Notes: generated from the letters alone by a model not told the origin. DNA of 29,886 bases from Gaiellales bacterium (GCA_964203735.1 CAXNNM010000001.1:1-29886); one strand, 5' to 3'. Numbered from the stretch's first letter, positions 1 through 20,034 are shown. A program made the numbers and translations.

Positions 1-171
1 CTCGGCGGCAACGTCCGCGTCGGCCTCGAGGACAACCTCTACATCAGCAAGGGTGAGTTCGCCTCGAACGCGCAGTTGGTTGAGCGCGCAGTCACGATCA
101 TCGAGAGCCTGGGTGGCACGGTTGCCGGTCCCGACGTCGCGCGCGAGCGGCTCGGGATCACCAAGCGCTAG
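1..171 (+). CDS. 3-keto-5-aminohexanoate cleavage enzyme / beta-keto acid cleavage (BKACE, DUF849) family, C-terminal fragment truncated by the window edge
   Basis: My frame-1 translation (not in the ORF track): [56 protein letters not shown]. The [11 protein letters not shown]...SNAQLV motif is typical of the BKACE C-terminus. Confidence 0.85.
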
Positions 172-947
172 CGGTCTCGCCACTCCGGCTTGCGCTTCTC
201 GGTGAAGGCCGCCACGCCTTCAGCGAAGTCCTCTGTGCTACGAAGCAGGCCATAGGCGAGACCTTCGAGTTCCATCCCAATACTGAGCGACGTATTTGGA
301 GCCTGATTGAGAACGCGCTTGAGGGTGCGGAGCGCGACAGTGGGACGGGCCGCCATGTCGTCTGCCAACGCTGCCACAGCCGCGTCCAGCTCGGCCCGTG
401 GGTGCACCTCGGTCAGTAGGCCCCAACGATGCGCCTCATCGGCCTTCAAACGCCGGCCGCGCATGACCATGTCTTTCGCACGCCCCAGGCCAACCATCTG
501 CACGATCCGTTGAGAGCCGCCGGACCCAGGGATCATGCCAAGCGAGATTTCGGGCAAGCCAATCTGCGTATCGTCAGCCGCAATGCGAAAATCACAGGCC
601 AGCGCAAGCTCGAGACCGACACCAAGGCAATATCCATGCAACTGAGCAATCACCGGCTTAGGACATCGCTCGGGCGCAGCAACGTTGTCATGAAGGTGGC
701 TGATCCACTCGGGATCGACCTGCATAAACCCGGCGATATCACCCCCGGCGGTGAAGGCCTCATCGCCCGCTCCGCGCACCACGATGCAGCGAACGCGGTC
801 GTCGTTGCCGAGCTCTTCGAAGGCCCGGGCGATTTGGGCACGCGCCGTCACCGCGACGCGATTCATCTTGCCTGGAACATCGAGCGTCAGGGTCGCGACG
901 CGACGCGCTTCGTCGAGTTCGACGCGGAAGCCTTCGCATTCAGTCAT
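168..947 (-). CDS. hmfE: Crotonase-fold (enoyl-CoA hydratase family) protein, probable 2-oxoglutaroyl-CoA hydrolase
   Basis: Motifs [35 protein letters not shown] and [15 protein letters not shown]. It is the last gene after a Mo-hydroxylase trio and a CoA ligase, the hmfABCDE order. Start re-placed at MTECEG (ATGA overlap with the ligase stop, GGAGGAG SD upstream). Confidence 0.75.
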
Positions 948-2443
948 TGCTCCTCCTTCAGGAGTCGTCGGAGAAGCTTGCCCGAAGCGCTCTTGGGTAG
1001 CTGATCCACAAAGATATAACGGCGCGGCCGCTTGAAGCGCGCAAGCTCGGTGGCGGCTAAACAATAGGCATCTAATTGATCGTCGCTAACAGCAGCGGAT
1101 GCGACGATATATGCGGTGACGAGGTGGCCGAGTCGTTCATCGGGAGTGCCGATTACGGCTGCCTCCAGTACCGCGGGGTGACGAACGAGCAGCTCCTCGA
1201 TCTCAAGCGGGTGGACGTTCTCACCGCCAGAAATGATCATGTCGTCGATGCGACCATCAATCCAGAGGTCGCCATCTGCATCTTCGTGCGCGAGGTCACC
1301 AGGAAAGTACCAGCCGTCACGGATCTGCTTGGCATCGGCATCGGGGCGCTTCCAGTAGCCAGTGAAGGCCTCGTCGGATGCCAGCGAACAGACGACTTGA
1401 CCGACCTCTCCCGGCGCGACAACGTCAGTTGGGCTGGCCTCAAGGTCGGGTCGAACGAGACGAATCCGCTCGTTGACCCCCGGGCGACCTGCGCAACCTG
1501 GTTTTGCGCGCTGGTCGCTGTGGACGGTGAACGTGTAGATCTCTGTCGATCCATAGTGATTGACAAACACGTCGGGGTCGAACAATGCGACGCAGCGTTG
1601 GGTCAAAACACCCGTCATCGGCGCTCCCGCGTAGGCGATGCGTCGAACCGATGACACGTCACGCGGAGCCGCCTCGTGCGCCAACGCCATGTCATGAAAG
1701 AGCGTTGGTGCGAGGTAGAGGCACGTCAGTTCGTCGTGCAGCACGAGGTCGAGGGCGCGGCTGGCGTCCCACTCTTCCATCAGGTGGAGGCTGCCACCGA
1801 CCAGCGTCATCGCGAGCATCGAGCGCTGCCCCATCGTGTGGTACAGCGGCATCACCCCGAGCGTGCGTTCGCTAGGTCCGTACCCACACTGTGCAACGTG
1901 GGCGATCGACGCGGCTCGCTCGGCCGCATGGGAGCGCGGCACGCCCTTCGGATTGCCCGTCGTCCCTGACGTGTAGAGCATCAGAGACGGTGCGCACTGA
2001 TCAACATCGGTTGCCTCAGCGAGCGGAGCGGCAGCCTCGAGATCGGCGAACGGCGTACCTTTTTCGGCACCTGCGACAGCAACAATCGGGATCCCCTCGA
2101 CGAGCTCTGCGACATCAATCGAGTCAGGTTCTATCACGAGCAACGCAGACTCTGCATCCTGGACGCAGTAGTGAAGTTCGACGGGACGCAATCGCCAGTT
2201 GAGGGGGACAAAGACGCCGCCAAGCCACTGCGTTGCCCACCAGAGGACGACAGTCTCCTCGCGATTACGAAGCGCGACGGCAACACGGTCCCCTTGGCCA
2301 ACACCGAGCGCTGCCATGCCGCTGGCAACGCATTTCGCCCGTTCGAACAGTTCCGCGTAGGTGAGTCTGCGGTCGCCGTCGGTGAGAGCGACCGCCGCAG
2401 GGTGCCGCTCCGCACAGCCGATCAGATGTTCGGCAAAATTCAC
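944..2443 (-). CDS. hmfD: Acyl-CoA synthetase (ANL family), probable 2-furoyl-CoA synthetase
   Basis: Adenylation motifs LYTSGTTGNPKG, YGSTE, GRIDDMIISGGENVHP and PKSASGK. The GTG start overlaps the stop of the 2Fe-2S gene (GTGA). Substrate is inferred from operon context. Confidence 0.75.
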   Translation of the reverse strand: MNFAEHLIGCAERHPAAVALTDGDRRLTYAELFERAKCVASGMAALGVGQGDRVAVALRNREETVVLWWATQWLGGVFVPLNWRLRPVELHYCVQDAESALLVIEPDSIDVAELVEGIPIVAVAGAEKGTPFADLEAAAPLAEATDVDQCAPSLMLYTSGTTGNPKGVPRSHAAERAASIAHVAQCGYGPSERTLGVMPLYHTMGQRSMLAMTLVGGSLHLMEEWDASRALDLVLHDELTCLYLAPTLFHDMALAHEAAPRDVSSVRRIAYAGAPMTGVLTQRCVALFDPDVFVNHYGSTEIYTFTVHSDQRAKPGCAGRPGVNERIRLVRPDLEASPTDVVAPGEVGQVVCSLASDEAFTGYWKRPDADAKQIRDGWYFPGDLAHEDADGDLWIDGRIDDMIISGGENVHPLEIEELLVRHPAVLEAAVIGTPDERLGHLVTAYIVASAAVSDDQLDAYCLAATELARFKRPRRYIFVDQLPKSASGKLLRRLLKEEQ

Positions 2444-2922
2444 AGCGCCCGCTCCGACTCGGGCGGCAAACCGGCCGCGTCGGCAATCGCTTCGATGATC
2501 CCGACGTACCCCGTGCAGCGGCAGAGGTGCCCAGACAGCAGGTCTGTGATCGCCGCCCGACTCGTCAGTTCACCACGCTCCAGTGCCTCGGTGGCGGTGG
2601 CAAGAATGCCCGGCGTACAGAATCCACACTGCAACCCGTGGTGCGTCGAGAAGGCGACCTGCAAGGGGCTGAGCGTGCCCGCCGGGTCTGCTAATCCCTC
2701 AACGGTAAGGATCTCACAGCCAGCGACCTGAACGGCGAGCAGCAGACAGGAACGTGAGGCGACTCCATCGACGAGGACGGTGCAAGCACCACAGACGCCG
2801 TGTTCACAACCAACGTGGGTGCCACGCAAGCCAAGGTCGTGACGAAGGACGTCGGAAAGCAGGCGGCGATCTTCGATGTCGCGTCGGTACGTGCGACCAT
2901 TGACCGCGAACTCGACATTCAT
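2440..2922 (-). CDS. hmfC: CoxS/XdhA-type 2x[2Fe-2S] small subunit, probable furoyl-CoA dehydrogenase subunit
   Basis: GCEHGVCGACTV, SC, QCGFC and HLCRCTGY cysteine sets; ATGA overlap with the FAD subunit. Confidence 0.8.
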   Translation of the reverse strand: MNVEFAVNGRTYRRDIEDRRLLSDVLRHDLGLRGTHVGCEHGVCGACTVLVDGVASRSCLLLAVQVAGCEILTVEGLADPAGTLSPLQVAFSTHHGLQCGFCTPGILATATEALERGELTSRAAITDLLSGHLCRCTGYVGIIEAIADAAGLPPESERAL

Positions 2923-3758
2923 GCCAGTGCCTCCGCGAGCGCTCGAACGACGAGCGTGCCGATAAGCGATCGTCGGTAGGCCGATGGTGCGTGCGGCGAA
3001 TCAGGCGGATCCACCGACTCAGCGGCGAGCGCGCGTAGTTCGTTCGGTGGCACACCGGCCACGATCGCGGCCTCAACCATGGTTAGGCGAATAGGACGAT
3101 CGGACACTGCCCCAGCCGCAACCCGTGCTTCGATGACGTCGCCGTCCTCTATGTGCACCGCGAGCGCGACGATCGCCATGGCGTAGTCGCCGTGGCGTTG
3201 GGCAACTTCGCCAAAGCCAAAGTGCCAACCAGCACCGAGCACTGGGAAGCGCACTGCGGTCAGAATCTCGTCGTCACCGAGTGACGAGGTGAGGTACGAA
3301 ACGAACAGTTCGGCTGCTGATACGTGACGGGTGCCGTCGAGACCGACAACGACCGCCTCGCCGTCAAGACACACCAGCACGCACGGCAATTCGGCTGCCG
3401 GATCGGCGTGGGCGATCGTGCCACCGACCGTGCCGCGGTTACGTGTCGTCGTGTGGCCGACGTGTGGCAGTGCAAGATCCAACAGTGGACACGCTTCGAG
3501 CGCCGCGCGATCGCGCTCAAGCGCACGTTGCGTGGTCATGGCTCCGACAGTCACGGCCGTGTCCGTCACCTCGATACCGACGAGCCCGGCAACGTCACGA
3601 AGATCCACCAGCACATCGGGAGTGGCGAGTCGAAAGTTGAGCAGAGGCATCAGTGACTGGCCCCCTGCCACGACCTTCACGTACCCGCCCGTAGCGAGCA
3701 GCCGACAGGCCTCGTCAATCGTTGACGGTCGCTGGTAGACGAGTGGCGCGGGCTTCAT
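2919..3758 (-). CDS. hmfB: CoxM-type FAD-binding medium subunit, probable furoyl-CoA dehydrogenase subunit
   Basis: MKPAP start (ATGA overlap with the large-subunit stop), AGGQSLMPLLNFR and RNRGTVGG motifs. No Cys-rich [4Fe-4S] insertion. Confidence 0.8.
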   Translation of the reverse strand: MKPAPLVYQRPSTIDEACRLLATGGYVKVVAGGQSLMPLLNFRLATPDVLVDLRDVAGLVGIEVTDTAVTVGAMTTQRALERDRAALEACPLLDLALPHVGHTTTRNRGTVGGTIAHADPAAELPCVLVCLDGEAVVVGLDGTRHVSAAELFVSYLTSSLGDDEILTAVRFPVLGAGWHFGFGEVAQRHGDYAMAIVALAVHIEDGDVIEARVAAGAVSDRPIRLTMVEAAIVAGVPPNELRALAAESVDPPDSPHAPSAYRRSLIGTLVVRALAEALA

Positions 3759-6181
3759 TCCGCCTCTCCCTGCAACAGTGCCCAAACGCGCGCGGGCGTG
3801 AGTGGAATCGGGACCGCGTCTATGCCAATCGCGTCGGCAACAGCATTTGCGAGACAGGCCGGTGCGCTCATCGTATTGCCCTCACCAAGCCCTTTGGCAC
3901 CGAGCGGCGTAGTCGGCGACGGCGTCTCGATCGCGCGGTGGCGTACCGGGGGCAACTCGGTCGCGGTCGGTGGTAGGTAATCGAGGAACGAGGCCGTCAT
4001 CAGATTGCCGTCCTCGTCGTAGCGGTGCTCTTCGAGGAGCGCAGCCCCGAGACCGTGAGCGAGTCCGCCCATCATCTGCCCGTCGGCAATCAGCGGGTTA
4101 AGAATCCGGCCAGCGTCGTGCACGGTCGCGTAGCGGAGAACCTGCACCTGTCCGGTCTCGGCATCAACCTCGACGATGGCGACATCGGCAATGAAGCCAT
4201 AAACCGCCGAGGTGTTGCAGCGATCATCTGCATCTGGCTCGGGTAGCGGGATCGTGTAGGTCGCTGTCAGAGCGAGTCCACCGACATCGCCGACAGCGCC
4301 GGTGCCGGCCGGGTTCCAGTGCGCGCCGCCCGCCAAACGCCTGATGCTGATCGAACGCTCTCCATCGTCGGAGGATCGAGCCTTCCCATCGCTCAACACG
4401 ACTGCCTCAGGTGGGCACCCAAGCTCATGCGCGGCGAGCGTCTTCAGGCGGTCGGCGAGAAGTGTCGCCGCGTGGTGAATCGCGCTTGCGACGACCGCCG
4501 AGAACCGCGAAGAGTAGTTGCCACTCGAGACGGTCCAGGGGTTCGCCGAGGTATCGGCCTCGGTGCGAACGTCAACATCCTCGAGCGACACTCCGAGAGC
4601 GTCAGCGACAATCTGCGCTGCAACGGTCCGATGGCCCTGCCCTTGGGGTGTTGATGTAAACCGTACGGTGACCCCCCCGTGCGGCCCCATCGCGATCGAG
4701 ACGCCTTCGCTATTGCCCGTCTTGGGGAGGCCTCTCGCACGCACCTCTGCGGGCTGAGCAAGGCTGATGTAGCCCATGTTCGAGACACTTGGCTCGACGA
4801 CGACCGCTAGGCCGATCCCGACCAACCTCCCCTGCGCCCGCTTCGCATCCCGAAAGGCCAGTAGCTCGTCGTAGTCGGCAAGCTCGAGGGCCTCGTCGAA
4901 ACACCGCAGGTAGTCCCCAGAGTCGTAAATGGCTCCAGCCGCCGCGCGGTATGGCATCTGCTCCGAGCGAACCAGGTTACGGCGGATCAACTCGGCGTGG
5001 TCGAGGCCTAACTCGCCAGCCGCGATCATCATCGTACGCTCGAGTGGGTAGTACAGCTGGGGTCCACCGAAGCCACGATTGAGCCCGGTTGGAGCCCGAT
5101 TGGTCACCACGACACGCGAGCGTACGGCAAGATTTTGTACGTCGTAGGCACCTGTCAGGCAGCCGTGCATGCGGTACAGCGTCGCTGGTTCGGGTGCGCG
5201 TACGTAGGCGCCGACGTCATCGAGTAGGTCCAAGTCGAGTGCAACGAGTTTGCCATCGGCATCGAAACCAGCCGCGATCTCGGTCAGGCGCTCAGTCGCA
5301 GACGATGAAGCGAGCAAGTGTTCGCCGCGGTCCTCCGTCCAGCGCACCGGAATGCCAAGCACCCGACTGACCGCCGCCATCAGCACGACGTAGACAAAGA
5401 CTGCGGACTTGATGCCGTAGGACCCACCGCTTGCCGGCGGCGTGCAGAGGCGCAGCTTCGACGCGGGAATACCAAGTGCAGCAGCCGCGACACCGTGCAG
5501 CGTGAATGGTCCTTGAAAATTCGCCCACGCATCAACGCCACCCCGCGACTCGTCCCAGTTAGCGATCACGCCGTAGGTCTCGACGGGCGTCGCGCTGTTG
5601 CGCGGGTGTCGAAACCGACGGCGCACAACAAGCACCGCGGTGGCAAATGCCTGCTCGGGGTCGCCATAGCGAAACGTGCGGTCCGAGACAACGTTGGAGG
5701 TCGTCGCGGCGTGTAAGCGGATTGCCGTTGGCTCGGCCGCGCTTGCCGGATCGGCGACGACCGGCTGCGGGTCGTAGTCGACGACCACGAGCGCCGCAGC
5801 GTCCTCTGCAACGTAGCGATCCCGTGCCACCACGACCGCGACCGGTTCGCCGGCAAAGCGCACGCACTCGTACGCCGCTGGTCGATAGTCGATCGGCACG
5901 TCGAGCACCGATGGAAATGGCTGGGTAATCGCAGCGATCTCAGCTCCGGTAACGACGCCGATGACGCCATCCACAGCCAGCGCGGCAGAGACATCAATCG
6001 ACCGAATCTGAGCGTGTGCGAAAGGTGAGCGCACAATGGCTGCATGCCCTGCATGTGGCAGGGGATCAATGTCGTCGATAAACCACTCGCGACCTCGCAG
6101 CAACGGGTCATCCTCAACGCGAGTAATGCCGCGTCCGACCCAACTTGGCTTGGTCTCGGTTGCTTCCATCGGTTCCGACAT
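3755..6181 (-). CDS. hmfA: Xanthine-oxidase-family molybdopterin large subunit, probable 2-furoyl-CoA dehydrogenase large subunit
   Basis: Motifs VRFAGEPVAVVVA, GGSYGIK, active-site loop NRGFGG, QGQGHRT, SSGNYSSR and KGLGEGN (catalytic Glu). The start is uncertain: 6232 GTG, 6181 ATG or 6169 ATG. I chose 6181 because 6232 lies inside the predicted larB promoter. Confidence 0.75.
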   Translation of the reverse strand: MSEPMEATETKPSWVGRGITRVEDDPLLRGREWFIDDIDPLPHAGHAAIVRSPFAHAQIRSIDVSAALAVDGVIGVVTGAEIAAITQPFPSVLDVPIDYRPAAYECVRFAGEPVAVVVARDRYVAEDAAALVVVDYDPQPVVADPASAAEPTAIRLHAATTSNVVSDRTFRYGDPEQAFATAVLVVRRRFRHPRNSATPVETYGVIANWDESRGGVDAWANFQGPFTLHGVAAAALGIPASKLRLCTPPASGGSYGIKSAVFVYVVLMAAVSRVLGIPVRWTEDRGEHLLASSSATERLTEIAAGFDADGKLVALDLDLLDDVGAYVRAPEPATLYRMHGCLTGAYDVQNLAVRSRVVVTNRAPTGLNRGFGGPQLYYPLERTMMIAAGELGLDHAELIRRNLVRSEQMPYRAAAGAIYDSGDYLRCFDEALELADYDELLAFRDAKRAQGRLVGIGLAVVVEPSVSNMGYISLAQPAEVRARGLPKTGNSEGVSIAMGPHGGVTVRFTSTPQGQGHRTVAAQIVADALGVSLEDVDVRTEADTSANPWTVSSGNYSSRFSAVVASAIHHAATLLADRLKTLAAHELGCPPEAVVLSDGKARSSDDGERSISIRRLAGGAHWNPAGTGAVGDVGGLALTATYTIPLPEPDADDRCNTSAVYGFIADVAIVEVDAETGQVQVLRYATVHDAGRILNPLIADGQMMGGLAHGLGAALLEEHRYDEDGNLMTASFLDYLPPTATELPPVRHRAIETPSPTTPLGAKGLGEGNTMSAPACLANAVADAIGIDAVPIPLTPARVWALLQGEAE

Positions 6182-6191
6182 AGTAAACACG

Positions 6192-6208
6192 AATCCGCTG
6201 AGCGGAAC
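6192..6208. promoter_or_regulatory. Candidate operator 1, AATCCG-CTGAG-CGGAAC (core palindrome TCCGCT-G-AGCGGA at 6194-6206)
   Basis: Palindrome in the hmfA/larB divergent intergenic region; 14 of 16 positions match the site upstream of larA. Confidence 0.65.
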
Positions 6209-6214
6209 AAGATC

Positions 6215-6244
6215 TTGCGTTTGTTGGCCCACCCACCGTAGACT
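6215..6244 (+). promoter_or_regulatory. Putative sigma70/SigA promoter for the larB operon, TTGCGT-N18-TAGACT
   Basis: -35-like TTGCGT at 6215-6220 and TAnnnT -10 at 6239-6244. The larB ATG at 6254 has no SD, so the mRNA would be near-leaderless. Confidence 0.45.
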
Positions 6245-6253
6245 CCCGCCACG

Positions 6254-7036
6254 ATGGATCCCGTAAAGCGAACAACCGATCCACTCACCATGCTGCTCGA
6301 GAGCGTGCGCGACGGTTCGCTCGGTCTTGACGAGGCTACGCGAGAGCTACGCGAGCTGCCCTTTCGCAACCTCGGCTTCGCTCGCGTCGATAACCACCGC
6401 GAGCTGCGACAGGGCGCACCTGAGGCAGTGCTCGCCGAAGGCAAAACCCCGCACGAGGTCATCGCAATCATGGCCGCTCTCGCTGAGGGAACATCGTCGA
6501 GCGTCCTCGTGACACGCGTTGATGAGGCCTGTTTTGAGGCCGTGCTGACAGCGTATCCCGATGCGCAATTCCATCGGCGTGCCCGCTGTATTTGGCTCGA
6601 ACGTGCGCTCCCCGAACCACTTGGACGCGTGGCGATCGTCTCGGCCGGTACGAGCGATGGACACGCTGTTCACGAGGCGCGCATTCGCGCAGAACTCATT
6701 GGCACCCACGTCGACACCTATGAGGACGCTGGCGTTGCAGGCCTACACCGCCTTCTCGCCGTCCTTCCCGAACTCGAGGATGTGGACTGCGTCATCGTCT
6801 GTGCCGGTATGGATGCCGCGCTCGCCAGCGTCGTCGGTGGTTATGTCGCGGCTCCCGTGATTGCCGTGCCGACGAGTACCGGCTACGGCGTTACTTTCGG
6901 TGGCGTGGCCGCATTGCACGCGATGCTCGCTTCATGTGCGGCCGGCGTCGCTGTCGTCAATATCGACGATGGCTTCAGCGCCGGGACGATCGCGGCCCGA
7001 ATTGCCCGACGAGCCGCTGGCGAGGAGAGTGTCTGA
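6254..7036 (+). CDS. larB: NPN cofactor biosynthesis NaAD carboxylase/hydrolase LarB
   Basis: FARVDNHRELRQGAPEAVLAEGKT, AGTSD, AGMDAALASVVGG, AVPTSTGYG and MLASCAAGVAVVNIDDGF (PurE-like C-terminal domain). Confidence 0.93.
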   Translation: MDPVKRTTDPLTMLLESVRDGSLGLDEATRELRELPFRNLGFARVDNHRELRQGAPEAVLAEGKTPHEVIAIMAALAEGTSSSVLVTRVDEACFEAVLTAYPDAQFHRRARCIWLERALPEPLGRVAIVSAGTSDGHAVHEARIRAELIGTHVDTYEDAGVAGLHRLLAVLPELEDVDCVIVCAGMDAALASVVGGYVAAPVIAVPTSTGYGVTFGGVAALHAMLASCAAGVAVVNIDDGFSAGTIAARIARRAAGEESV

Positions 7037-8280
7037 TGGGACACGACGGACACGACGGACACGACCACGACCACAATCACAAACACCACGCAACGGTGCT
7101 GCCGACAGCACGGGGCATCGTCTATATCGATGCCATCGGAGGAGCCGCTGGCGACATGTTGCTCGCCGCACTGCTCGATGCTGGTGCACCACTCGAGTCG
7201 GTCGAGGCCGCCGTCGGCTCGCTGGTACCGGGGCTCACGGTCACGGTTGGCCACACCGAACGACACGCGATTGGTGCCCGCACGGTCACCATTGTCGGCC
7301 CCGATGAAGGCCACGTCCATCGCACCTGGCGTGATGTCCGCGCATTGCTTGACGCGGCCGACCTCGCGCCGCGAGCTGCCGCCCGCGCACACCGCGCCTT
7401 CGAGTTGCTCGCTCACGCCGAAGGTCGTGTTCACGGCCAAGACCCCGAGGATGTACATTTTCACGAGGTTGGAGCCATCGACGCGATCGCCGACATCGTT
7501 GGCGTCTGTGCCGCGCTAGAGGCCCTCGGAGCCGACCGTATTGAAGCGGGTCCACTCCCGCTTGGCCGTGGGGTCACGGCGGCCGCGCACGGGCAGATCC
7601 CACTGCCAGCACCGGCAGTGCTTGAGATTCTCCAAGGCTCCCCGATTGCTCCGAGTCTCGTTCAGGGCGAGACCGTGACGCCAACGGGGGCCGCCCTGGT
7701 CGCCGCCGTCGTCGACGCGTGGGGTGGCGTTCCCGCGCTGCGACTCGGAGCGACCGGGTACGGGGCTGGTCAACGCGACACGGCCGAGGTTCCAAACCTC
7801 GTGCGCGTCCTCGTCGGCTCGCCGCTTGCTTCCCCGCGCGACGAAATCGCGATTGTCGAGGCGACAATCGATGATCTCAACCCAGAACTCGTGCCCGACG
7901 CGCTCGACGATGTGCGCAGCGCCGGCGCGCTCGATGTCTGGACCACTCCCGTAGTCATGAAACACGGCCGCCACGGCGTGACCATCACCGCGATCGCGCG
8001 CCCCGTCGATCGAGAGGCCGTCGCAACCGCGCTGCTGCGTTCGACGAGTACCCTCGGCGTCCGCATCACCGACGGACACCGCATCGAACTTGACCGCGAC
8101 TTCATCTCGGTGGAGGTCCACGGCCACGACATCCGTGTCAAGCGCGGGCTGCTCGATGACGCCATCGTCAACGTCGCACCGGAGCACCGCGACTGTGTCG
8201 TTGCGGCGCGGGCACTCGGCGTGCCCGTCAAGGAGATCTGGTCGGCAGCGCTCGCGCAGGCTCACGGTGCCGGACAATGA
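7036..8280 (+). CDS. larC: NPN cofactor nickel insertase LarC, single uninterrupted ORF with an N-terminal His-rich extension
   Basis: YIDAIGGAAGDMLLAALLD, VHFHEVGAIDAIADIVG, ETVTPTGAA, EATIDD, STLGVR and PEHRDC motifs. Start re-placed at 7036 (TGATG overlap with larB). Confidence 0.92.
   Translation: MGHDGHDGHDHDHNHKHHATVLPTARGIVYIDAIGGAAGDMLLAALLDAGAPLESVEAAVGSLVPGLTVTVGHTERHAIGARTVTIVGPDEGHVHRTWRDVRALLDAADLAPRAAARAHRAFELLAHAEGRVHGQDPEDVHFHEVGAIDAIADIVGVCAALEALGADRIEAGPLPLGRGVTAAAHGQIPLPAPAVLEILQGSPIAPSLVQGETVTPTGAALVAAVVDAWGGVPALRLGATGYGAGQRDTAEVPNLVRVLVGSPLASPRDEIAIVEATIDDLNPELVPDALDDVRSAGALDVWTTPVVMKHGRHGVTITAIARPVDREAVATALLRSTSTLGVRITDGHRIELDRDFISVEVHGHDIRVKRGLLDDAIVNVAPEHRDCVVAARALGVPVKEIWSAALAQAHGAGQ
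7039..7089 (+). repeat. Short tandem repeat (GGACACGAC x3, then CACGAC/CAC units) encoding GHDGHDGHDHDHNHKHH
   Basis: Read directly at 7039-7089. Confidence 0.85.
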
Positions 8281-9134
8281 GCACGCCCCCCTCTCCCCAC
8301 GCACTGACACGGCTCAGCGACCGGATCGTCGAACGGGTCGCCGGGCTCGATGGGGCTGTAGTTGCGCTGTCAGGTGGTGTCGATTCGTCGGTGGTCGCCG
8401 CCTTGGCCGTCCGTGCCCTCGGCGAGCGAGCGCTCGCCGTAACTGCTGTCTCTCCGGCGCTCGCCACGGGCGAGCTCGATGGCGCCGCCAGCGTGGCTCT
8501 CACCGTTGGCATCCGGCACGAGGCGATTATGACGAATGAGCTGGCGCGCGCCGGCTATCGCGCGAACGGTTCCGACCGCTGCTATCACTGCAAATCCGAG
8601 CTCTACGACAACCTCGCTGCGATCGCCCAGCAGCGCGGCTACGCAGCCGTGCTGTCGGGCGCGAACGCGGATGACCTTGGCGACTGGCGCCCCGGCCTAA
8701 TTGCAGCGGAGGAACACGGCGTACTGCATCCGTTGGTTGAGTTTGCCGTTGACAAAGACCAGGTGCGGCTGCTCGCGGCACACCTGGGCGTACCGAACGC
8801 CAAGAAGGTCGCCAGCCCATGCCTAGCCTCGCGCATCCCCCACGGTACGCCGGTCCACGCGGATACATTGGCGCAGATTGATCGTGCCGAGCAGGCTCTG
8901 CACGGACTCGGACTCGGACCACTGCGGGTTCGTCACTACGACGAGCTAGGTCGCGTCGAATTGAGCGAGAATGACCTCGCCCGTCGCGATCTGCTTGAGC
9001 CAGCGATCGTCGCGGCCGTCACGGTCGCCGGCTACACCAGCGTGGAGATCAGTGCCACGCCCTTTCGGTCGGGAAGTTTGACGCGCCAATTCGTCAGCAG
9101 CCTCCCGATCGCGCAGTGCGTGGAGAACCGCTGA
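8277..9134 (+). CDS. larE: NPN cofactor sulfur transferase LarE (PP-loop ATPase)
   Basis: PP-loop SGGVDS, DRCYHCK, NADDLGDWRPG, SPCLASRIPHG and LRVRH motifs; ATGA overlap with larC. Confidence 0.93.
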   Translation: MSTPPSPHALTRLSDRIVERVAGLDGAVVALSGGVDSSVVAALAVRALGERALAVTAVSPALATGELDGAASVALTVGIRHEAIMTNELARAGYRANGSDRCYHCKSELYDNLAAIAQQRGYAAVLSGANADDLGDWRPGLIAAEEHGVLHPLVEFAVDKDQVRLLAAHLGVPNAKKVASPCLASRIPHGTPVHADTLAQIDRAEQALHGLGLGPLRVRHYDELGRVELSENDLARRDLLEPAIVAAVTVAGYTSVEISATPFRSGSLTRQFVSSLPIAQCVENR

Positions 9135-9856
9135 TGGGACTGTTCGATCCCATTGACGAGCACCTCTCGACCGTGGGTGGTGGTTGGGTTTTTGTCCTCG
9201 TTGTCGCAGTCCTGCTCGGACTGCGTCACGCAACGGATCCCGATCACCTGACAGCGTTGCTCTCCCTGCGCCTGAGAGGCAGCCAGCGACCACCCCATCG
9301 ACTGGGCCTCGCCTGGGGCGCTGGTCATGCGGTGACGATGATCCTCGTCGGAGTGCCCTTGATCCTGTTCGTTGGACAACTCCCCACTGCGCTGCAGCAG
9401 GGGCTTGAGGTGGCTGTCGGCATACTCATCATCGTGCTCTCAATCCGTGTGCTGTGGGGACTCGTAGAGCTGAGGGCCCACGCGCACGAGCACGCCCATG
9501 GTGACGGCGTCGTACACTCTCACCCCCACGTCCACGGTGCCGGCGCGCACGCGCATGGCATCCGATCGACGCGGAGCGCCTTCTCGATTGGTCTGCTCCA
9601 TGGGGCCGCTGGCAGCGCCAGCATCGTCGCACTCATTCTCACGCGCCTCGAGAGCCCACTGCTCGCCTGCCTCTCACTCGTGGTCATCGCCGGCTTCTGC
9701 ATGCTCTCGATGGCCTGCTGCTCGTGGGTGCTCTGCCGGAGCCTTGACGGTAGCGAGCGACGCGTTGATCAACGTTGGATTGCTGGCGTCGGCGGCAGCC
9801 TCGCGCTCTGCTTTGGCTTCGTCTACGCCGCCTCCGCGGCGGGTTTCGTCGCATGA
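9134..9856 (+). CDS. Nickel/cobalt transporter (NiCoT-like, UreH/SodT type) membrane protein
   Basis: GLRHATDPDH resembles the NiCoT RHAxDxDH signature; also WGAGHAVT, a His-rich loop and GLLHGAAGS, with several hydrophobic segments. Start re-placed at 9134 (TGATG overlap). Confidence 0.8.
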   Translation: MGLFDPIDEHLSTVGGGWVFVLVVAVLLGLRHATDPDHLTALLSLRLRGSQRPPHRLGLAWGAGHAVTMILVGVPLILFVGQLPTALQQGLEVAVGILIIVLSIRVLWGLVELRAHAHEHAHGDGVVHSHPHVHGAGAHAHGIRSTRSAFSIGLLHGAAGSASIVALILTRLESPLLACLSLVVIAGFCMLSMACCSWVLCRSLDGSERRVDQRWIAGVGGSLALCFGFVYAASAAGFVA

Positions 9857-10629
9857 ACGACGAAGTCACTCGTAGCGCGACGAGCCTGGCATCCGTCGAC
9901 CGCTCACTGCGATTACTCGAGGAGCTCGCACGCTCTGGCGATCTCGGCGTCACCGAACTTGCCTCACGGATTGGCGCTGGCAAGGCAACCGCCCATCGGC
10001 TAGTCAAGACGCTCGAGGCGCGCGACTACGTCGTCCAGAACACCAATTCGACGTATCGGCTCGGGCCTCGCTGCCTCTACCTCGCCCAAGGTGTCGAAGC
10101 CGGCCTCGACCTGCGCAGCGCAGCACTGCCGATCCTCGCGGCCCTGCGGGATCGCACCGGCGAGACGGCACAGTTGACCGTCTTCGATGAGGGCGACGTC
10201 GTCTACGTCGAGCAGGTCACGTCCCGTAAGCCCGTGCGTAGCGTTGGGGAAATTGGTGGCCGAGCGCCCGCGCATTGTGTGTCCGGCGGCCTAGCCCTGC
10301 TCGCCTTTGGGCCACCGGAGAGTGTCGCCTACCTTACCGCCCGTGGCGAATCTTCCCCTACCCCAACGGCGAAGCAACGCTGGCTCGACCTCGATGCCGA
10401 GCTCTCGACAATCCGTACAGCAGGCTATGCGGTCAACCGCGGCGGTTTCCAGTCAGAGGTCGGTGGCGTGGCTGCACCAATTATGGACGTCAACGGCATC
10501 GCCATCGCAGCCATCAGCACCTGCGTTCCTCTGTTTCGCCTCGATGCGGTTGGTGTCACCACGCTCGCGGAGGCCGTCACCTCTGCCGCCCGCGAAATGA
10601 GCGTGCTACTCGGGGCCGACGCCGGATAG
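9853..10629 (+). CDS. IclR-family transcriptional regulator
   Basis: N-terminal HTH SVDRSLRLLE...GVTELASRIGAGKATAHRLVKTL, then YRLG, TGETAQL, and C-terminal GYAVNRGG...GVAAPI. Start at MNDEV (ATGA overlap with the transporter stop). Confidence 0.93.
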   Translation: MNDEVTRSATSLASVDRSLRLLEELARSGDLGVTELASRIGAGKATAHRLVKTLEARDYVVQNTNSTYRLGPRCLYLAQGVEAGLDLRSAALPILAALRDRTGETAQLTVFDEGDVVYVEQVTSRKPVRSVGEIGGRAPAHCVSGGLALLAFGPPESVAYLTARGESSPTPTAKQRWLDLDAELSTIRTAGYAVNRGGFQSEVGGVAAPIMDVNGIAIAAISTCVPLFRLDAVGVTTLAEAVTSAAREMSVLLGADAG

Positions 10630-10653
10630 TTCCTAGCCAGACCACCTGAGGGG

Positions 10654-10935
10654 CTATCGAGACTGATACCCAGGACGGCGCGGCACTTTAACGCCGGCAG
10701 CCGCAATTTGCTCCTCCGTTGGTCCGTTGTCGGCGAGTGACCGGAAGGCCTCAAGTACTGCACGCGGCGAGTTGCGGTGCCGGATCGCAGCCATCGTCAA
10801 GGGCTCGGAGAGAGCACCACTGCAGTGCGCGCACGGCCAGTACAACCGTCGCGAAAGTTCGGCCGCCGTACCGGGATATTTTTTGAAGATATCGACCAGT
10901 AACGTCGAGCCAGTGATGCTGAACTCGGTGGTCAC
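10654..10935 (-). CDS. Small CxxC protein resembling DUF1858 (hybrid-cluster-protein-associated redox disulfide domain)
   Basis: ITGSTLLVDIFKKYP...WPCAHCSGALSEPLTMAAIRH follows the I..T...I..KYP...CxxC..A..E.L..AA..H pattern. The GTG start is 8 bp after the larA-like stop on the same strand. Confidence 0.6.
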   Translation of the reverse strand: MTTEFSITGSTLLVDIFKKYPGTAAELSRRLYWPCAHCSGALSEPLTMAAIRHRNSPRAVLEAFRSLADNGPTEEQIAAAGVKVPRRPGYQSR

Positions 10936-10943
10936 GTGTCGGC

Positions 10944-12368
10944 CTAGTGCGTCGGGATCTCCACAGGCGGCGGCTCGTTCGGCGTCATCCGAATCATGTG
11001 GCGCGCGAGCTGGTAGCGGGCGAAGGGCAAGATCACGACCTTCGCATCCGGCCCATGCTTTTCGAGCGCACGATCGAACGTCTCTTGGAGCGAGGTGCTA
11101 GCGGCAATGCCGATCTCCGCCGCCATTGCGAGGTTCTCTTCCAGCGTCACCATTGTTAGGTGCTTGCGCGTCATCACCTCGTAGATTGGCACCCAGATGC
11201 AGCCGGCCCACATCTGGATCGTGCGCGAATGGATATCGCGCAGCACGCGCTCGTAGCTTGCGGTCGTCGGTGGCATATATGGCGTCATTAGATCCATCAA
11301 AGCGAGACCCGGAAAATCACCAATCGCTGTGTGTACGCCGGGCGATGGCGAGCAATAAATGAGATCCCCGCCGTCCTTCAGAATCGGGTCAGCGCTCATG
11401 CAACCCCAGCCGGTGTGGAAGAAAAGATGGTCGGTCGGCGCAAAGACGCCGCAGACCACGATGTCCGCCTGCCCGTGTTCGGCGACCGGGCTATCGTAGG
11501 CATAGATCTCGTTGAATCGCGTGATCGCTGCGACATGGGCCTCGGGGTGACGCCCGAAGATCAGCTCGATCGCGCGCCCGCGGGTGTCGAGAATCGCATT
11601 GAGTGTGCAGTCAAGGCCACACATCGTCGCCACCTCGTCGATATCTGCCCGCATCGGCCCGCCGAGCGCACCGTAATGCGTCTGCGGTGAGGGGACGAAG
11701 GCTCCATGGTTGGACTCGATCGTCTCGTCGGACACGACGCCTGGCATGATCAACTTGCCACCACCGCCCGCGCCCCAATGGTTTGACTGCGCCTGACCGA
11801 TCGTGATCGTGACATCACGCTTCATCACTTCGTTGTGGAGCCAGACCGGTGTGCCACGCGATGAGACGCCGACGAAGGAGTAATTATCCACTTCGCGTGG
11901 ATCGTTCTGAAAGAACGGAATTCCCATTTGCTTCATGCGGGCGAGGTTCTCGCGGCCGATCTTCTGATCAATGTCCGACTCCGACATTGGGAAGACCTTG
12001 CCGTTGGCACAGACGACGACCGCATCCGTGACACCAGCCGCCTCGAGCTCGTCAAAGATGGCGGGCAAGATCTTCATCTGCGGCGTCGGCCGGAACTGAT
12101 TGTCGATCACCACAGCGACGGACTTGCCACCCTTGATCAACTCGGCGAACGTCGGCCCACTCTGCGGGTTGCGAAGTGCGTGTCGCGCAGCCTCTAGCGT
12201 ACTCGCAGTGGGCTCCGGCTCGTTGGGACGAATATCTGCCATCAGGTTCTTGAGCGGGAACGACAACTCGAGGGTATCGCGATAGACCAGCGTGTCGTCA
12301 TCGGCCGACCCAATCGTCAGCGGATCGATCGACTCGTACGGAATGATGGTGTGGTGTAGCTCGGTCAT
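10944..12368 (-). CDS. larA: Divergent LarA-family (lactate racemase superfamily, DUF2088) nickel-pincer protein, substrate unknown
   Basis: LarA-like blocks: ALRNPQSGP, VAVVIDNQFRPTP, GVSSRGTPVWL, GGGGKLIMPG, ETIESNH, LNAILD, ADIVVC, LKDGGDLI and AKVVILPFA. Start at ATG 12368 (GGGAG SD); the upstream GTG at 12401 overlaps the predicted -10 box. The family call is firm; lactate racemase activity is not claimed. Confidence 0.85.
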   Translation of the reverse strand: MTELHHTIIPYESIDPLTIGSADDDTLVYRDTLELSFPLKNLMADIRPNEPEPTASTLEAARHALRNPQSGPTFAELIKGGKSVAVVIDNQFRPTPQMKILPAIFDELEAAGVTDAVVVCANGKVFPMSESDIDQKIGRENLARMKQMGIPFFQNDPREVDNYSFVGVSSRGTPVWLHNEVMKRDVTITIGQAQSNHWGAGGGGKLIMPGVVSDETIESNHGAFVPSPQTHYGALGGPMRADIDEVATMCGLDCTLNAILDTRGRAIELIFGRHPEAHVAAITRFNEIYAYDSPVAEHGQADIVVCGVFAPTDHLFFHTGWGCMSADPILKDGGDLIYCSPSPGVHTAIGDFPGLALMDLMTPYMPPTTASYERVLRDIHSRTIQMWAGCIWVPIYEVMTRKHLTMVTLEENLAMAAEIGIAASTSLQETFDRALEKHGPDAKVVILPFARYQLARHMIRMTPNEPPPVEIPTH

Positions 12369-12399
12369 CGGGGGCTCCCGCGCGTAAGTAGGTAGGTGC

Positions 12400-12429
12400 A
12401 CGCTAGCGTCCGAGAGGCCCTCTGGTCAA
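12400..12429 (-). promoter_or_regulatory. Putative promoter for the larA-like unit, TTGACC-N18-TAGCGT
   Basis: Read on the mirror copy at 17458-17487; same TTG-N18-TAGnnT layout as the larB promoter. Confidence 0.5.
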
Positions 12430-12442
12430 CATTTCGGGCGCT

Positions 12443-12459
12443 GTTCCGACCAGCGGAAC
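12443..12459. promoter_or_regulatory. Candidate operator 2, GTTCCG-N5-CGGAAC perfect-arm palindrome
   Basis: gttccgaccagcggaac at 12443-12459. On the larA sense strand it reads GTTCCGCTGGTCGGAACA, matching operator 1. Confidence 0.65.
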
Positions 12460-17427: not shown

Positions 17428-17444
17428 GTTCCGCTGGTCGGAAC
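17428..17444. promoter_or_regulatory. Mirror copy: candidate operator 2 (GTTCCGCTGGTCGGAAC)
   Basis: Mirror of 12443-12459. Confidence 0.63.
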
Positions 17445-17518
17445 AGCGCCCGAAATGTTGACCAGAGGGCCTCTCGGACGCTAGCGTGCACCTACCTACT
17501 TACGCGCGGGAGCCCCCG

Positions 17519-18943
17519 ATGACCGAGCTACACCACACCATCATTCCGTACGAGTCGATCGATCCGCTGACGATTGGGTCGGCCGATGACGACACGCTGG
17601 TCTATCGCGATACCCTCGAGTTGTCGTTCCCGCTCAAGAACCTGATGGCAGATATTCGTCCCAACGAGCCGGAGCCCACTGCGAGTACGCTAGAGGCTGC
17701 GCGACACGCACTTCGCAACCCGCAGAGTGGGCCGACGTTCGCCGAGTTGATCAAGGGTGGCAAGTCCGTCGCTGTGGTGATCGACAATCAGTTCCGGCCG
17801 ACGCCGCAGATGAAGATCTTGCCCGCCATCTTTGACGAGCTCGAGGCGGCTGGTGTCACGGATGCGGTCGTCGTCTGTGCCAACGGCAAGGTCTTCCCAA
17901 TGTCGGAGTCGGACATTGATCAGAAGATCGGCCGCGAGAACCTCGCCCGCATGAAGCAAATGGGAATTCCGTTCTTTCAGAACGATCCACGCGAAGTGGA
18001 TAATTACTCCTTCGTCGGCGTCTCATCGCGTGGCACACCGGTCTGGCTCCACAACGAAGTGATGAAGCGTGATGTCACGATCACGATCGGTCAGGCGCAG
18101 TCAAACCATTGGGGCGCGGGCGGTGGTGGCAAGTTGATCATGCCAGGCGTCGTGTCCGACGAGACGATCGAGTCCAACCATGGAGCCTTCGTCCCCTCAC
18201 CGCAGACGCATTACGGTGCGCTCGGCGGGCCGATGCGGGCAGATATCGACGAGGTGGCGACGATGTGTGGCCTTGACTGCACACTCAATGCGATTCTCGA
18301 CACCCGCGGGCGCGCGATCGAGCTGATCTTCGGGCGTCACCCCGAGGCCCATGTCGCAGCGATCACGCGATTCAACGAGATCTATGCCTACGATAGCCCG
18401 GTCGCCGAACACGGGCAGGCGGACATCGTGGTCTGCGGCGTCTTTGCGCCGACCGACCATCTTTTCTTCCACACCGGCTGGGGTTGCATGAGCGCTGACC
18501 CGATTCTGAAGGACGGCGGGGATCTCATTTATTGCTCGCCATCGCCCGGCGTACACACAGCGATTGGTGATTTTCCGGGTCTCGCTTTGATGGATCTAAT
18601 GACGCCATATATGCCACCGACGACCGCAAGCTACGAGCGCGTGCTGCGCGATATCCATTCGCGCACGATCCAGATGTGGGCCGGCTGCATCTGGGTGCCA
18701 ATCTACGAGGTGATGACGCGCAAGCACCTAACAATGGTGACGCTGGAAGAGAACCTCGCAATGGCGGCGGAGATCGGCATTGCCGCTAGCACCTCGCTCC
18801 AAGAGACGTTCGATCGTGCGCTCGAAAAGCATGGGCCGGATGCGAAGGTCGTGATCTTGCCCTTCGCCCGCTACCAGCTCGCGCGCCACATGATTCGGAT
18901 GACGCCGAACGAGCCGCCGCCTGTGGAGATCCCGACGCACTAG
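17519..18943 (+). CDS. larA: Mirror copy: divergent LarA-family protein
   Basis: Mirror of 10944-12368. Confidence 0.83.
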   Translation: MTELHHTIIPYESIDPLTIGSADDDTLVYRDTLELSFPLKNLMADIRPNEPEPTASTLEAARHALRNPQSGPTFAELIKGGKSVAVVIDNQFRPTPQMKILPAIFDELEAAGVTDAVVVCANGKVFPMSESDIDQKIGRENLARMKQMGIPFFQNDPREVDNYSFVGVSSRGTPVWLHNEVMKRDVTITIGQAQSNHWGAGGGGKLIMPGVVSDETIESNHGAFVPSPQTHYGALGGPMRADIDEVATMCGLDCTLNAILDTRGRAIELIFGRHPEAHVAAITRFNEIYAYDSPVAEHGQADIVVCGVFAPTDHLFFHTGWGCMSADPILKDGGDLIYCSPSPGVHTAIGDFPGLALMDLMTPYMPPTTASYERVLRDIHSRTIQMWAGCIWVPIYEVMTRKHLTMVTLEENLAMAAEIGIAASTSLQETFDRALEKHGPDAKVVILPFARYQLARHMIRMTPNEPPPVEIPTH

Positions 18944-18951
18944 GCCGACAC

Positions 18952-19233
18952 GTGACCACCGAGTTCAGCATCACTGGCTCGACGTTACTGGTCGATATCT
19001 TCAAAAAATATCCCGGTACGGCGGCCGAACTTTCGCGACGGTTGTACTGGCCGTGCGCGCACTGCAGTGGTGCTCTCTCCGAGCCCTTGACGATGGCTGC
19101 GATCCGGCACCGCAACTCGCCGCGTGCAGTACTTGAGGCCTTCCGGTCACTCGCCGACAACGGACCAACGGAGGAGCAAATTGCGGCTGCCGGCGTTAAA
19201 GTGCCGCGCCGTCCTGGGTATCAGTCTCGATAG
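18952..19233 (+). CDS. Mirror copy: CxxC DUF1858-like protein
   Basis: Mirror of 10654-10935. Confidence 0.58.
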   Translation: MTTEFSITGSTLLVDIFKKYPGTAAELSRRLYWPCAHCSGALSEPLTMAAIRHRNSPRAVLEAFRSLADNGPTEEQIAAAGVKVPRRPGYQSR

Positions 19234-19257
19234 CCCCTCAGGTGGTCTGGCTAGGAA

Positions 19258-20034
19258 CTATCCGGCGTCGGCCCCGAGTAGCACGCTCATTTCGCGGGCG
19301 GCAGAGGTGACGGCCTCCGCGAGCGTGGTGACACCAACCGCATCGAGGCGAAACAGAGGAACGCAGGTGCTGATGGCTGCGATGGCGATGCCGTTGACGT
19401 CCATAATTGGTGCAGCCACGCCACCGACCTCTGACTGGAAACCGCCGCGGTTGACCGCATAGCCTGCTGTACGGATTGTCGAGAGCTCGGCATCGAGGTC
19501 GAGCCAGCGTTGCTTCGCCGTTGGGGTAGGGGAAGATTCGCCACGGGCGGTAAGGTAGGCGACACTCTCCGGTGGCCCAAAGGCGAGCAGGGCTAGGCCG
19601 CCGGACACACAATGCGCGGGCGCTCGGCCACCAATTTCCCCAACGCTACGCACGGGCTTACGGGACGTGACCTGCTCGACGTAGACGACGTCGCCCTCAT
19701 CGAAGACGGTCAACTGTGCCGTCTCGCCGGTGCGATCCCGCAGGGCCGCGAGGATCGGCAGTGCTGCGCTGCGCAGGTCGAGGCCGGCTTCGACACCTTG
19801 GGCGAGGTAGAGGCAGCGAGGCCCGAGCCGATACGTCGAATTGGTGTTCTGGACGACGTAGTCGCGCGCCTCGAGCGTCTTGACTAGCCGATGGGCGGTT
19901 GCCTTGCCAGCGCCAATCCGTGAGGCAAGTTCGGTGACGCCGAGATCGCCAGAGCGTGCGAGCTCCTCGAGTAATCGCAGTGAGCGGTCGACGGATGCCA
20001 GGCTCGTCGCGCTACGAGTGACTTCGTCGTTCAT
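19258..20034 (-). CDS. Mirror copy: IclR-family regulator
   Basis: Mirror of 9853-10629. Confidence 0.9.
   Translation of the reverse strand: MNDEVTRSATSLASVDRSLRLLEELARSGDLGVTELASRIGAGKATAHRLVKTLEARDYVVQNTNSTYRLGPRCLYLAQGVEAGLDLRSAALPILAALRDRTGETAQLTVFDEGDVVYVEQVTSRKPVRSVGEIGGRAPAHCVSGGLALLAFGPPESVAYLTARGESSPTPTAKQRWLDLDAELSTIRTAGYAVNRGGFQSEVGGVAAPIMDVNGIAIAAISTCVPLFRLDAVGVTTLAEAVTSAAREMSVLLGADAG

What the first reader, a model, noticed from the sequence alone, without database searches (positions are those of the whole stretch)
6192..12459. Shared palindromic operator (TCCGCTGnnCGGAACA) links the hmf/larB divergent promoter to the separate larA promoter
Seen: site 1 at 6192-6209 (+) is AATCCGCTGAGCGGAACA. 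Site 2 at 12442-12459, read on the larA sense strand, is GTTCCGCTGGTCGGAACA. They match at 14 of 16 core positions and are both TTCC/ATCC-N7-GGAA palindromes. Each lies just upstream (6 bp and 13 bp) of a TTGnnn-N18-TAGnnT promoter-like element. Established, from memory: the IclR-type regulator GenR of Corynebacterium glutamicum binds ATTCC-N7(5)-GGAAT-type palindromes. Inference: the local IclR controls hmf, larBCE and larA as one regulon. This is the strongest in-sequence evidence that the clustering is functional.
Basis: partly seen in the sequence, partly recalled or inferred. Interest (0 to 1): 0.78.

Follow-up and report, generated by a model that had tools for sequence, protein, structure and literature searches.

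The report
Conserved IclR operator upstream of hmf/lar genes
Two matching 17-bp palindromes (GTTCCG-N5-CGGAAC) in front of a furoyl-CoA-dehydrogenase-like operon, the nickel-pincer cofactor genes and a LarA homologue are real and conserved in related genomes. They fit the commonest binding motif of IclR-family regulators, so this is an ordinary but well-supported predicted regulon.

Summary
No shuffle of the two intergenic regions reaches that (0 of 400).

Comparative evidence carries the case:
- In all 14 loci that encode this IclR (about five lineages of freshwater and soil Thermoleophilia/Gaiellales), the motif lies between the hmfA-like gene and larB or iclR.
- A second, weaker site lies 19-20 bp away, over the hmfA -10 box and start codon.
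- A perfect copy lies 13-14 nt upstream of the larA -35 box in four lineages. Arms are 11/12 invariant, spacer 0/5, flanks 0/33.
- Four hmf-like loci without IclR or lar genes have no such site upstream of hmfA.
- The motif is not a genomic repeat.

It equals the published 'GTT-11-AAC' group-1 IclR consensus, including the tandem spacing.

Limits: binding, effector and sign of regulation are untested. In the Gaiellales-type lineage larA has no site. In G031 larBCE has none.

This is a new member of a known kind, of moderate interest.

The window itself is a perfect palindromic assembly artefact, so each site appears twice.

The parts
6192..6208 (.). Operator O1 (AATCCG-CTGAG-CGGAAC) in the hmfA-like/larB divergent promoter. 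The right arm CGGAAC is invariant in 14 loci, the left arm keeps only CCG, and the spacer varies.
6172..6188 (.). Operator O2 (GTTCCG-ACATA-GTAAAC): a weaker tandem site with its centre 20 bp from O1. It overlaps the hmfA -10 box and lies 3 nt from the hmfA start codon.
   Evidence: tandem spacing of 18-22 nt is described for the family in PMC8222616
12443..12459 (.). Operator upstream of the larA homologue: a perfect palindrome, GTTCCG-N5-CGGAAC, 13 nt upstream of the -35 box and centred about -58 from the inferred transcription start.
6215..6244 (+). Inferred larB promoter: TTGCGT, 18-nt spacer, TAGACT, ending 9 nt before the larB ATG. The leader is very short or absent.
   Evidence: the CTTGCG/-10 arrangement is kept in G019 and L053; not called by the E. 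coli consensus scan
6180..6185 (-). Inferred hmfA -10 box (TACTAT on the minus strand; TATCAT in the Gaiellales-type loci), 10 nt before the ATG at 6169. The mRNA is near leaderless.
12400..12429 (-). Inferred larA promoter: TTGACC, 18-nt spacer, TAGCGT. It is conserved in all lineages, including those without the operator.
9775..10629 (+). IclR-family regulator (HTH_IclR + IclR_C), last gene of the larB-larC-larE-nicO-iclR string. The true start is probably later than 9775.
168..6169 (-). hmfABCDE-like operon: Mo-binding large subunit (3755-6169), FAD subunit, 2Fe-2S subunit, AMP-forming CoA ligase and enoyl-CoA hydratase family protein.
   Evidence: relatives 60-70% identical are named '2-furoyl-CoA dehydrogenase large subunit' by JGI and NCBI
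6254..9856 (+). larB (6254-7036), larC (6934-8280), larE (8277-9134) and a NicO-like nickel transporter (9116-9856).
10944..12368 (-). LarA homologue (Lar_N domain; below the cut-off of every NCBIfam LarA subfamily).
17428..23715 (.). Mirror copies of the three sites (17428-17444, 23679-23695, 23699-23715). They arise from the palindromic assembly and are not independent sites.

Best explanation

The recognition unit is the 17-bp palindrome GTTCCG-N5-CGGAAC, read by an IclR dimer.

At the divergent promoter two units sit 20 bp apart, on the same face of the helix, as expected for a tetramer.
- O1 covers the -35 region of the hmfA-like promoter and lies 6 nt upstream of the larB -35 box.
- O2 covers the hmfA -10 box and start.

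The bound protein should therefore shut off the hmfABCDE-like operon. It should also control larB-larC-larE-nicO-iclR, and so its own gene.

A single perfect unit lies at about -58 of the separate larA promoter and puts larA in the same regulon. That position fits activation or helper binding better than simple occlusion, so the regulator may act in both directions.

A pathway metabolite presumably changes binding.

Shown here: the sites, their conservation, their co-occurrence with the regulator gene, and their match to the family motif. Inferred: binding itself, stoichiometry, promoter and start positions, sign of regulation and effector.
For: 1. Sites and similarity beyond chance: (0 of 400 shuffles reach 14/16).

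2. Phylogenetic footprint upstream of larA in four non-redundant lineages (W, G019, G031, L053). Arms are 11/12 invariant, spacer 0/5, flanks 0/33. The distance to TTGACC is fixed at 13-14 nt.

3. O1 and O2 are present in all 14 loci with the IclR orthologue. The spacers differ: CTGAG, GCTGG, CGAGC, TCACC, CCAGG, CCCGC, CTCAC, GTTGG, CCAGC, CATGG.

4. Four hmf-like loci without IclR or lar genes have no site upstream of hmfA; one 2-mismatch hit lies about 10 kb away.

5. Genome-wide, matches with up to 1 mismatch are no more frequent than the control pattern. There are 7 exact matches in 5 genomes, and 5 of them lie within 25 kb of iclR. The other 2 are one orthologous position inside what reads as a murA coding sequence, by my reading of its translation.

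6. With a matrix trained only on other genomes, site 2 ranks 1 and site 1 ranks 17 of 990,393 positions in the MAG.

7. In the Gaiellales-type loci O1 sits 4 nt from the -10 box of iclR itself, which is classic autoregulation.

8. The motif equals the IclR group-1 subgroup GTTYCRYW3RYGRAAC. Tandem sites 18-22 nt apart are typical of the family (PMC8222616).

9. Only one IclR-family gene was found in this MAG, which is 61% complete.
Against: - No binding, expression or transcription-start data exist. All runs that hold the sequence are DNA metagenomes.
- Site 1 alone is a weak match: 2 mismatches, rank 17.
- The motif is a family-wide consensus, so a paralogous IclR could bind it. Relatives carry 2-12 IclR-family matches per genome.
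- The regulon is not uniform. There is no site within 10 kb upstream of larA in G046 and none upstream of larBCE in G031.
- The promoters are not called by an E. coli sigma-70 scan.
- The 14 loci are kin, amounting to about five independent lineages.
Confidence: 0.8

Rival explanations
1. The palindromes are real regulatory sites, but a different transcription factor binds them: a paralogous IclR-family protein or another HTH family encoded elsewhere. The local IclR would have other targets.
For: GTT-11-AAC is the commonest IclR motif type and is shared by many orthologous groups. Relatives encode several IclR paralogues. The MAG is only 61% complete.
Against: The motif co-occurs with this IclR orthologue in 14 of 14 loci, and is missing upstream of hmfA in 4 of 4 hmf-like loci that lack it. 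In the Gaiellales-type loci the site overlaps the iclR promoter itself. Exact copies cluster within 25 kb of iclR.
Confidence: 0.1
2. The palindromes act at the RNA or DNA-structure level, as hairpins or terminators, not as protein-binding sites.
For: The scan flags site 1 on the minus strand as terminator-like: a 5-bp stem followed by a T-rich tail.
Against: No gene runs into site 1 on that strand. The arms are invariant in sequence rather than covarying, and O1's left arm is degenerate, which weakens any stem. Site 2 has no T-tail. All the sites lie upstream of promoters.
Confidence: 0.03
3. Site 2 is the autoregulatory operator of the neighbouring PIN/VapC-like gene (12554-13294) and resembles site 1 only by chance.
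For: Site 2 lies in the intergenic region shared by larA and the PIN-domain ORF. Toxin-antitoxin promoters often carry palindromes (general knowledge).
Against: The same site, at the same distance from the larA -35 box, is present in G019, G031 and L053, where no PIN gene is adjacent.
Confidence: 0.02
4. The similarity is coincidence or a common genomic repeat.
For: The minimal TCCG-N5-CGGA palindrome occurs about 25 times in the 1-Mb MAG, roughly the chance rate. The in-window count at up to 2 mismatches is not significant.
Against: Shuffles, the cross-genome footprint, the genome-wide control and the ranks from an independently trained matrix.
Confidence: 0.02

Closest known systems
IclR-family group-1 binding motif, subgroup 'GTT-11-AAC' (GTTYCRYW3RYGRAAC), as catalogued by comparative genomics (Front Microbiol 2021, PMC8222616)
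   Same: A 17-bp odd-length palindrome with GTTCCG/CGGAAC arms. [quoted passage not shown] Tandem sites lie 19-20 bp apart. The regulator's own transcription unit carries a site.
   Different: The central five bases are G+C-rich and unconstrained rather than YWWWR. This orthologous group and its target genes (hmf-like and lar) did not turn up in two full-text literature searches. The host is an uncultured Thermoleophilia lineage.
GenR of Corynebacterium glutamicum (gentisate / 3-hydroxybenzoate regulon), motif ATTCC-N7(5)-GGAAT
   Same: TTCC-N7-GGAA core. The Gaiellales-type loci even carry an N5-spaced variant (GTTCC-N5-GGAAT) beside an N7 one. It is an actinobacterial catabolic regulon, and the family includes dual activator/repressor members (PMC8222616).
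   Different: Outer bases are G...C rather than A...T. The protein is not shown to be a GenR orthologue; its best NCBIfam hit is BhcR, below cut-off. The target pathway is different.
PcaU / PobR (Acinetobacter baylyi) and TtgV-type multi-box IclR operators
   Same: More than two half-sites are needed or used. Tetramer-sized footprints span about 37-42 bp over a divergent promoter.
   Different: Here the boxes form two inverted pairs with strong outer and weak inner half-sites, rather than a palindrome plus one direct repeat. No footprint is available.
Regulation of hmfABCDE furoate clusters in Proteobacteria
   Same: A dedicated regulator is encoded beside the hmfABCDE-type cassette.
   Different: The regulator family differs (IclR instead of LysR), and the regulon extends to nickel-pincer cofactor genes and a LarA homologue.

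Membership tests
IclR-family group-1 (GTT-11-AAC) operator | 17-bp palindrome matching GTTYCR-YW3R-YGRAAC | tested here: met
   Site 2 matches 12/12 arm positions and site 1 10/12. The consensus is from PMC8222616. The central YWWWR preference is not kept; the spacers are G+C-rich and variable.
IclR-family group-1 (GTT-11-AAC) operator | An IclR-family regulator gene (HTH_IclR + IclR_C) encoded next to the sites, with a site serving its own transcription unit | tested here: met
   Pfam: HTH_IclR 1.5e-12 and IclR_C 8.3e-30 for 9775-10629. iclR is the last gene of the string that starts at the O1 promoter, and the first gene after O1 in the Gaiellales-type loci.
IclR-family group-1 (GTT-11-AAC) operator | Conservation of the sites upstream of orthologous genes, with arms conserved and spacer free | tested here: met
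   14 of 14 loci carry O1. The larA site occurs in four lineages, with arms 11/12 invariant, spacer 0/5 and flanks 0/33.
IclR-family group-1 (GTT-11-AAC) operator | Tandem sites with 18-22 nt between centres (tetramer binding) | tested here: met
   O2 centre at 6180 and O1 centre at 6200, so 20 bp; 19 bp in G019, G031, L053 and the Gaiellales-type loci. The larA site stands alone.
IclR-family group-1 (GTT-11-AAC) operator | Specific binding of the regulator protein to the sites, modulated by an effector | not testable with these tools
   This needs EMSA, footprinting or reporter assays. No RNA runs hold the locus.
GenR orthologous group (C. glutamicum) | Orthology of the regulator to GenR and control of gentisate genes | tested here: not met
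   No gentisate pathway genes were seen in the locus. NCBIfam gives only sub-threshold hits to BhcR, PcaR/PcaU/PobR and KdgR. Only the motif type is shared.
hmfABCDE furoate cassette | Gene content and order: Mo large subunit, FAD subunit, 2Fe-2S subunit, CoA ligase, enoyl-CoA hydratase-family hydrolase | tested here: met
   Pfam domains in that order on the minus strand. Relatives 60-70% identical are named '2-furoyl-CoA dehydrogenase large subunit' by automatic annotation. No NCBIfam equivalog is reached.
hmfABCDE furoate cassette | Enzymatic activity on 2-furoyl-CoA | not testable with these tools
   The names come from automatic annotation only. The substrate could be another heteroaromatic acyl-CoA.

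The most novel reading that the evidence does not exclude
The shared operator would show that a nickel-pincer-cofactor enzyme (the atypical LarA homologue), together with its cofactor-synthesis genes, is a co-regulated, integral step of a furoyl-CoA-type heteroaromatic acid pathway in freshwater Thermoleophilia. That would be a new metabolic role for the LarA superfamily. The IclR protein would be its metabolite sensor, acting as repressor at hmfA and as activator at larA.
Probability: 0.3. Interest if true: 0.65.

Novelty: new member of a known kind. Interest (0 to 1): 0.4.

Why it matters
The operator gives sequence-level, cross-genome evidence that the hmf-like operon, the nickel-pincer cofactor genes and the LarA homologue are controlled together. 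That strengthens the case that this unusual gene neighbourhood is one functional unit.

It also hands experimenters a defined regulator-operator pair: a 17-bp site, three promoters, a natural hmf deletion variant and natural operator-less larA promoters. With these they can find the inducing metabolite of an uncultured lineage, and perhaps build a biosensor.

In itself it is a textbook IclR regulon with the family's commonest motif type.

Tried and rejected
- An E. coli-type promoter scan found no promoter in either intergenic region. The promoter calls therefore rest on conservation and on the actinobacterial TANNNT rule.
- The terminator-like call at site 1 was rejected because of its context.
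- A plain in-window motif count is not significant. The significance comes from the pairwise shuffle test and the comparative data.
- I looked for further regulon members in the MAG. The other high-scoring matrix hits lie in coding sequence or next to unrelated genes: a phosphorylase/MFS pair, pentose-phosphate genes and glycine cleavage T protein.
- An exact motif shared by G042 and G046 lies inside what reads as a murA coding sequence. That is my reading of the translation; no family search was run. I treat it as chance.
- No site within 10 kb upstream of larA in G046.
- No site upstream of larBCE in G031.
- Literature searches for furoyl-CoA with IclR, and for LarA or nickel-pincer with furoate, found nothing relevant.
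- No RNA sequencing run holds the locus, so no transcription starts could be read.
- An earlier-findings search for the motif returned nothing.
Full report
**1. The observation**

Both sites are in the sequence as described. Site 1 (6192-6209, +) reads AATCCGCTGAGCGGAACA. Site 2 (12442-12459), read on the minus strand, reads GTTCCGCTGGTCGGAACA. They agree at 14 of the 16 core positions and share one dyad centre.

The two promoter-like elements are also there:
- TTGCGT, 18 nt, TAGACT, ending 9 nt before the larB ATG at 6254.
- On the minus strand, TTGACC, 18 nt, TAGCGT ahead of the larA ATG at 12368.

An E. coli-type scan calls neither of them.

The gene labels hold:
- On the minus strand, a Mo-hydroxylase large subunit (3755-6169), an FAD subunit, a 2Fe-2S subunit, a CoA ligase and an enoyl-CoA hydratase.
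- On the plus strand, LarB, LarC, LarE, a NicO-like transporter and an IclR-family regulator (9775-10629).
- On the minus strand, a LarA homologue (10944-12368).
- Relatives of the large subunit at 60-70% identity are named '2-furoyl-CoA dehydrogenase large subunit' by automatic annotation.

**2. Is it more than chance?**

Within the window alone the answer is mixed.
- The minimal palindrome TCCG-N5-CGGA is common: about 25 unique copies in the 1-Mb MAG.
- GTTCCG-N5-CGGAAC with up to 2 mismatches is not over-represented in the window: 4 hits, which are 2 unique, against 2.1 expected.
- The similarity between the two intergenic regions is unusual, however. The best 16-mer match is 14, and none of 400 shuffles exceeded 13.

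**3. Comparative evidence**

The MAG belongs to Thermoleophilia/Gaiellales, according to the record titles of its closest relatives. It comes from lake and freshwater metagenomes.

I collected 13 further loci that encode the IclR orthologue at 56-97% identity. They represent about five lineages:
- the window with G013;
- G019;
- L053;
- G031;
- a Gaiellales-type group of eight loci.

In every one a GTNCCG-N5-CGGAAC element lies between the start of the hmfA-like gene and the divergent larB or iclR gene. The right arm CGGAAC is invariant. The left arm keeps CCG. The 5-nt spacer takes ten different forms.

A second unit follows 19-20 bp away, centre to centre. It is GTTCCG-N5-nTAAAC, at 6172-6188 in the window. 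It overlaps a conserved -10 box (TACTAT or TATCAT on the hmfA strand) that sits only 8-10 nt from the hmfA start codon, so the mRNA is probably near leaderless.

Upstream of larA, a perfect or 1-mismatch GTTCCG-N5-CGGAAC lies 13-14 nt before the conserved TTGACC-N17/18-TAGCGT promoter in W, G013, G019, G031 and L053. Across the four non-redundant lineages the arms are 11/12 invariant, the spacer 0/5 and 33 flanking columns 0/33. That is the signature of a protein-binding site.

**4. Specificity**

- In five relatives' genomes, matches with up to 1 mismatch are no more frequent than a reversed control pattern, so this is not a repeat family.
- Exact matches number seven. Five lie within 25 kb of iclR. 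The other two are one orthologous position inside what reads as a murA coding sequence, by my reading of its translation.
- From base composition I estimate about 0.03 exact matches expected in the five 50-kb neighbourhoods. This is my own calculation.
- A weight matrix trained only on sites from other genomes ranks site 2 first and site 1 seventeenth among 990,393 positions of the MAG. That gives roughly 0.001 for such a hit in the 84-bp hmfA-larB spacer.
- The remaining top hits are in coding sequence or next to unrelated genes.
- Four hmf-like loci that lack IclR and lar genes have no site upstream of hmfA.

**5. Regulon differences between lineages**

- The Gaiellales-type loci place iclR first after O1, 4 nt from its own -10 box.
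- They carry extra perfect sites in a divergent spacer between a glyoxalase-family gene and a beta-lactamase-family gene.
- In G046 a further perfect site lies in front of a LivHM-type ABC transporter operon.
- They have no site within 10 kb upstream of larA.
- In G031 the larBCE genes lie elsewhere and have no site, but larA, 11 kb from iclR, has a perfect one.

So in each lineage at least one lar transcription unit shares the operator with the hmf-like operon, but not always the same one.

**6. Comparison with what is known**

A comparative study of 1340 IclR-family regulators defines group 1 as GKTYCRYW3-4RYGRAMC. Its most populous subgroup is GTTYCRYW3RYGRAAC ('GTT-11-AAC'). The study reports tandem sites with 18-22 nt between centres as typical of tetramer binding, and sites mostly 20-80 nt upstream of gene starts. 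It lists GenR with ATTCC-N7(5)-GGAAT (PMC8222616).

The element found here is that motif, apart from a G+C-rich centre, and it shows the typical tandem spacing. The regulator is not shown to be a GenR orthologue: its best NCBIfam hits are sub-threshold matches to BhcR, PcaR/PcaU/PobR and KdgR.

No paper in the searchable library links furoyl-CoA genes with IclR, or LarA with furoate.

**7. Mechanism**

Most likely the local IclR binds O1+O2 as a tetramer. O1 covers about -19 to -35 of the hmfA-like promoter and O2 covers its -10 box and start, so binding should repress it. The same complex sits 6 nt upstream of the larB -35 box, which also gives autoregulation.

A dimer or tetramer at about -58 of the larA promoter, at a conserved distance, suggests activation or co-operative control there. 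The family is known to include dual regulators.

Shown: the sites, their conservation, their co-occurrence with iclR, and the motif match. Inferred: binding, stoichiometry, promoters and transcription starts, sign of regulation and effector.

Rivals:
- another IclR paralogue binds the sites (about 0.1);
- an RNA hairpin or terminator;
- a VapBC operator, excluded because the site persists where the PIN gene is absent;
- chance.

**8. Verdict**

The consensus is refined, a tandem site is added, and the regulon is shown to vary between lineages. It is a new member of a well-known kind. The interest lies in tying nickel-pincer cofactor genes to an hmf-like pathway, not in the operator itself.

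Noticed in passing
window 1-29886 (centre 14943/14944): The whole window equals its own reverse complement, with 0 mismatches, so only 14,943 bp are unique. Contig C3 of the same MAG is palindromic too. Logan contigs from the source runs end within 15 nt of the centre. In a relative, a contig runs on past 14917 into unlike sequence. Together these point to an assembly fold-back artefact.
   Followed up: partly
L038:4189-7523: This Gaiellales MAG contig has lost the whole hmfABCDE block, about 6 kb relative to L031:3941-9913. It keeps O1/O2, the first codons of hmfA, and iclR-larB. It is a natural hmf deletion beside an intact operator.
   Followed up: partly
L031:900-960 (also L032:51, L033:860, L034:118, L037:762, L038:4189) and L045:4995: Extra perfect operators occur in the Gaiellales-type genomes. 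One lies in a divergent spacer between a glyoxalase/VOC gene and a beta-lactamase-family gene, beside an N5-spaced GTTCC-N5-GGAAT variant. Another lies in front of a LivHM-type ABC transporter next to cupin and SMP-30 lactonase genes. They are possible further regulon members.
   Followed up: partly
window 6169-6254 and 12368-12405: The hmfA-like and larB genes start 9-10 nt after their inferred -10 boxes and have no Shine-Dalgarno sequence, so they are near leaderless. larA has a leader of about 25 nt with GGGAG.
   Followed up: no
window 12554-13294: A 246-aa ORF has a PIN/VapC domain only in residues 113-236. The real gene is probably shorter, with an antitoxin gene upstream. The module is present only in the window and in G013. 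It is absent at this place in G019, G031 and L053.
   Followed up: no
L021:14485-15219 versus window 9116-9856: In the closest relative (G013) no NicO match lies between larE and iclR. The only match, at 74% identity, sits between the PIN gene and the amidohydrolase. G019 and L053 keep the window's order.
   Followed up: no
L030 (CAMDVX010000025.1): The public record is titled 'MAG: Bifidobacterium breve'. Yet it carries this locus with proteins 64-86% identical, gene for gene, to the window's Thermoleophilia-type locus. The organism label looks wrong.
   Followed up: no
L053:7229-7261: The called start of the hmfA-like gene lies inside the operator spacer. The conserved ATG 30 nt downstream, at 7259, matches the window's start and is the more likely one.
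   Followed up: no
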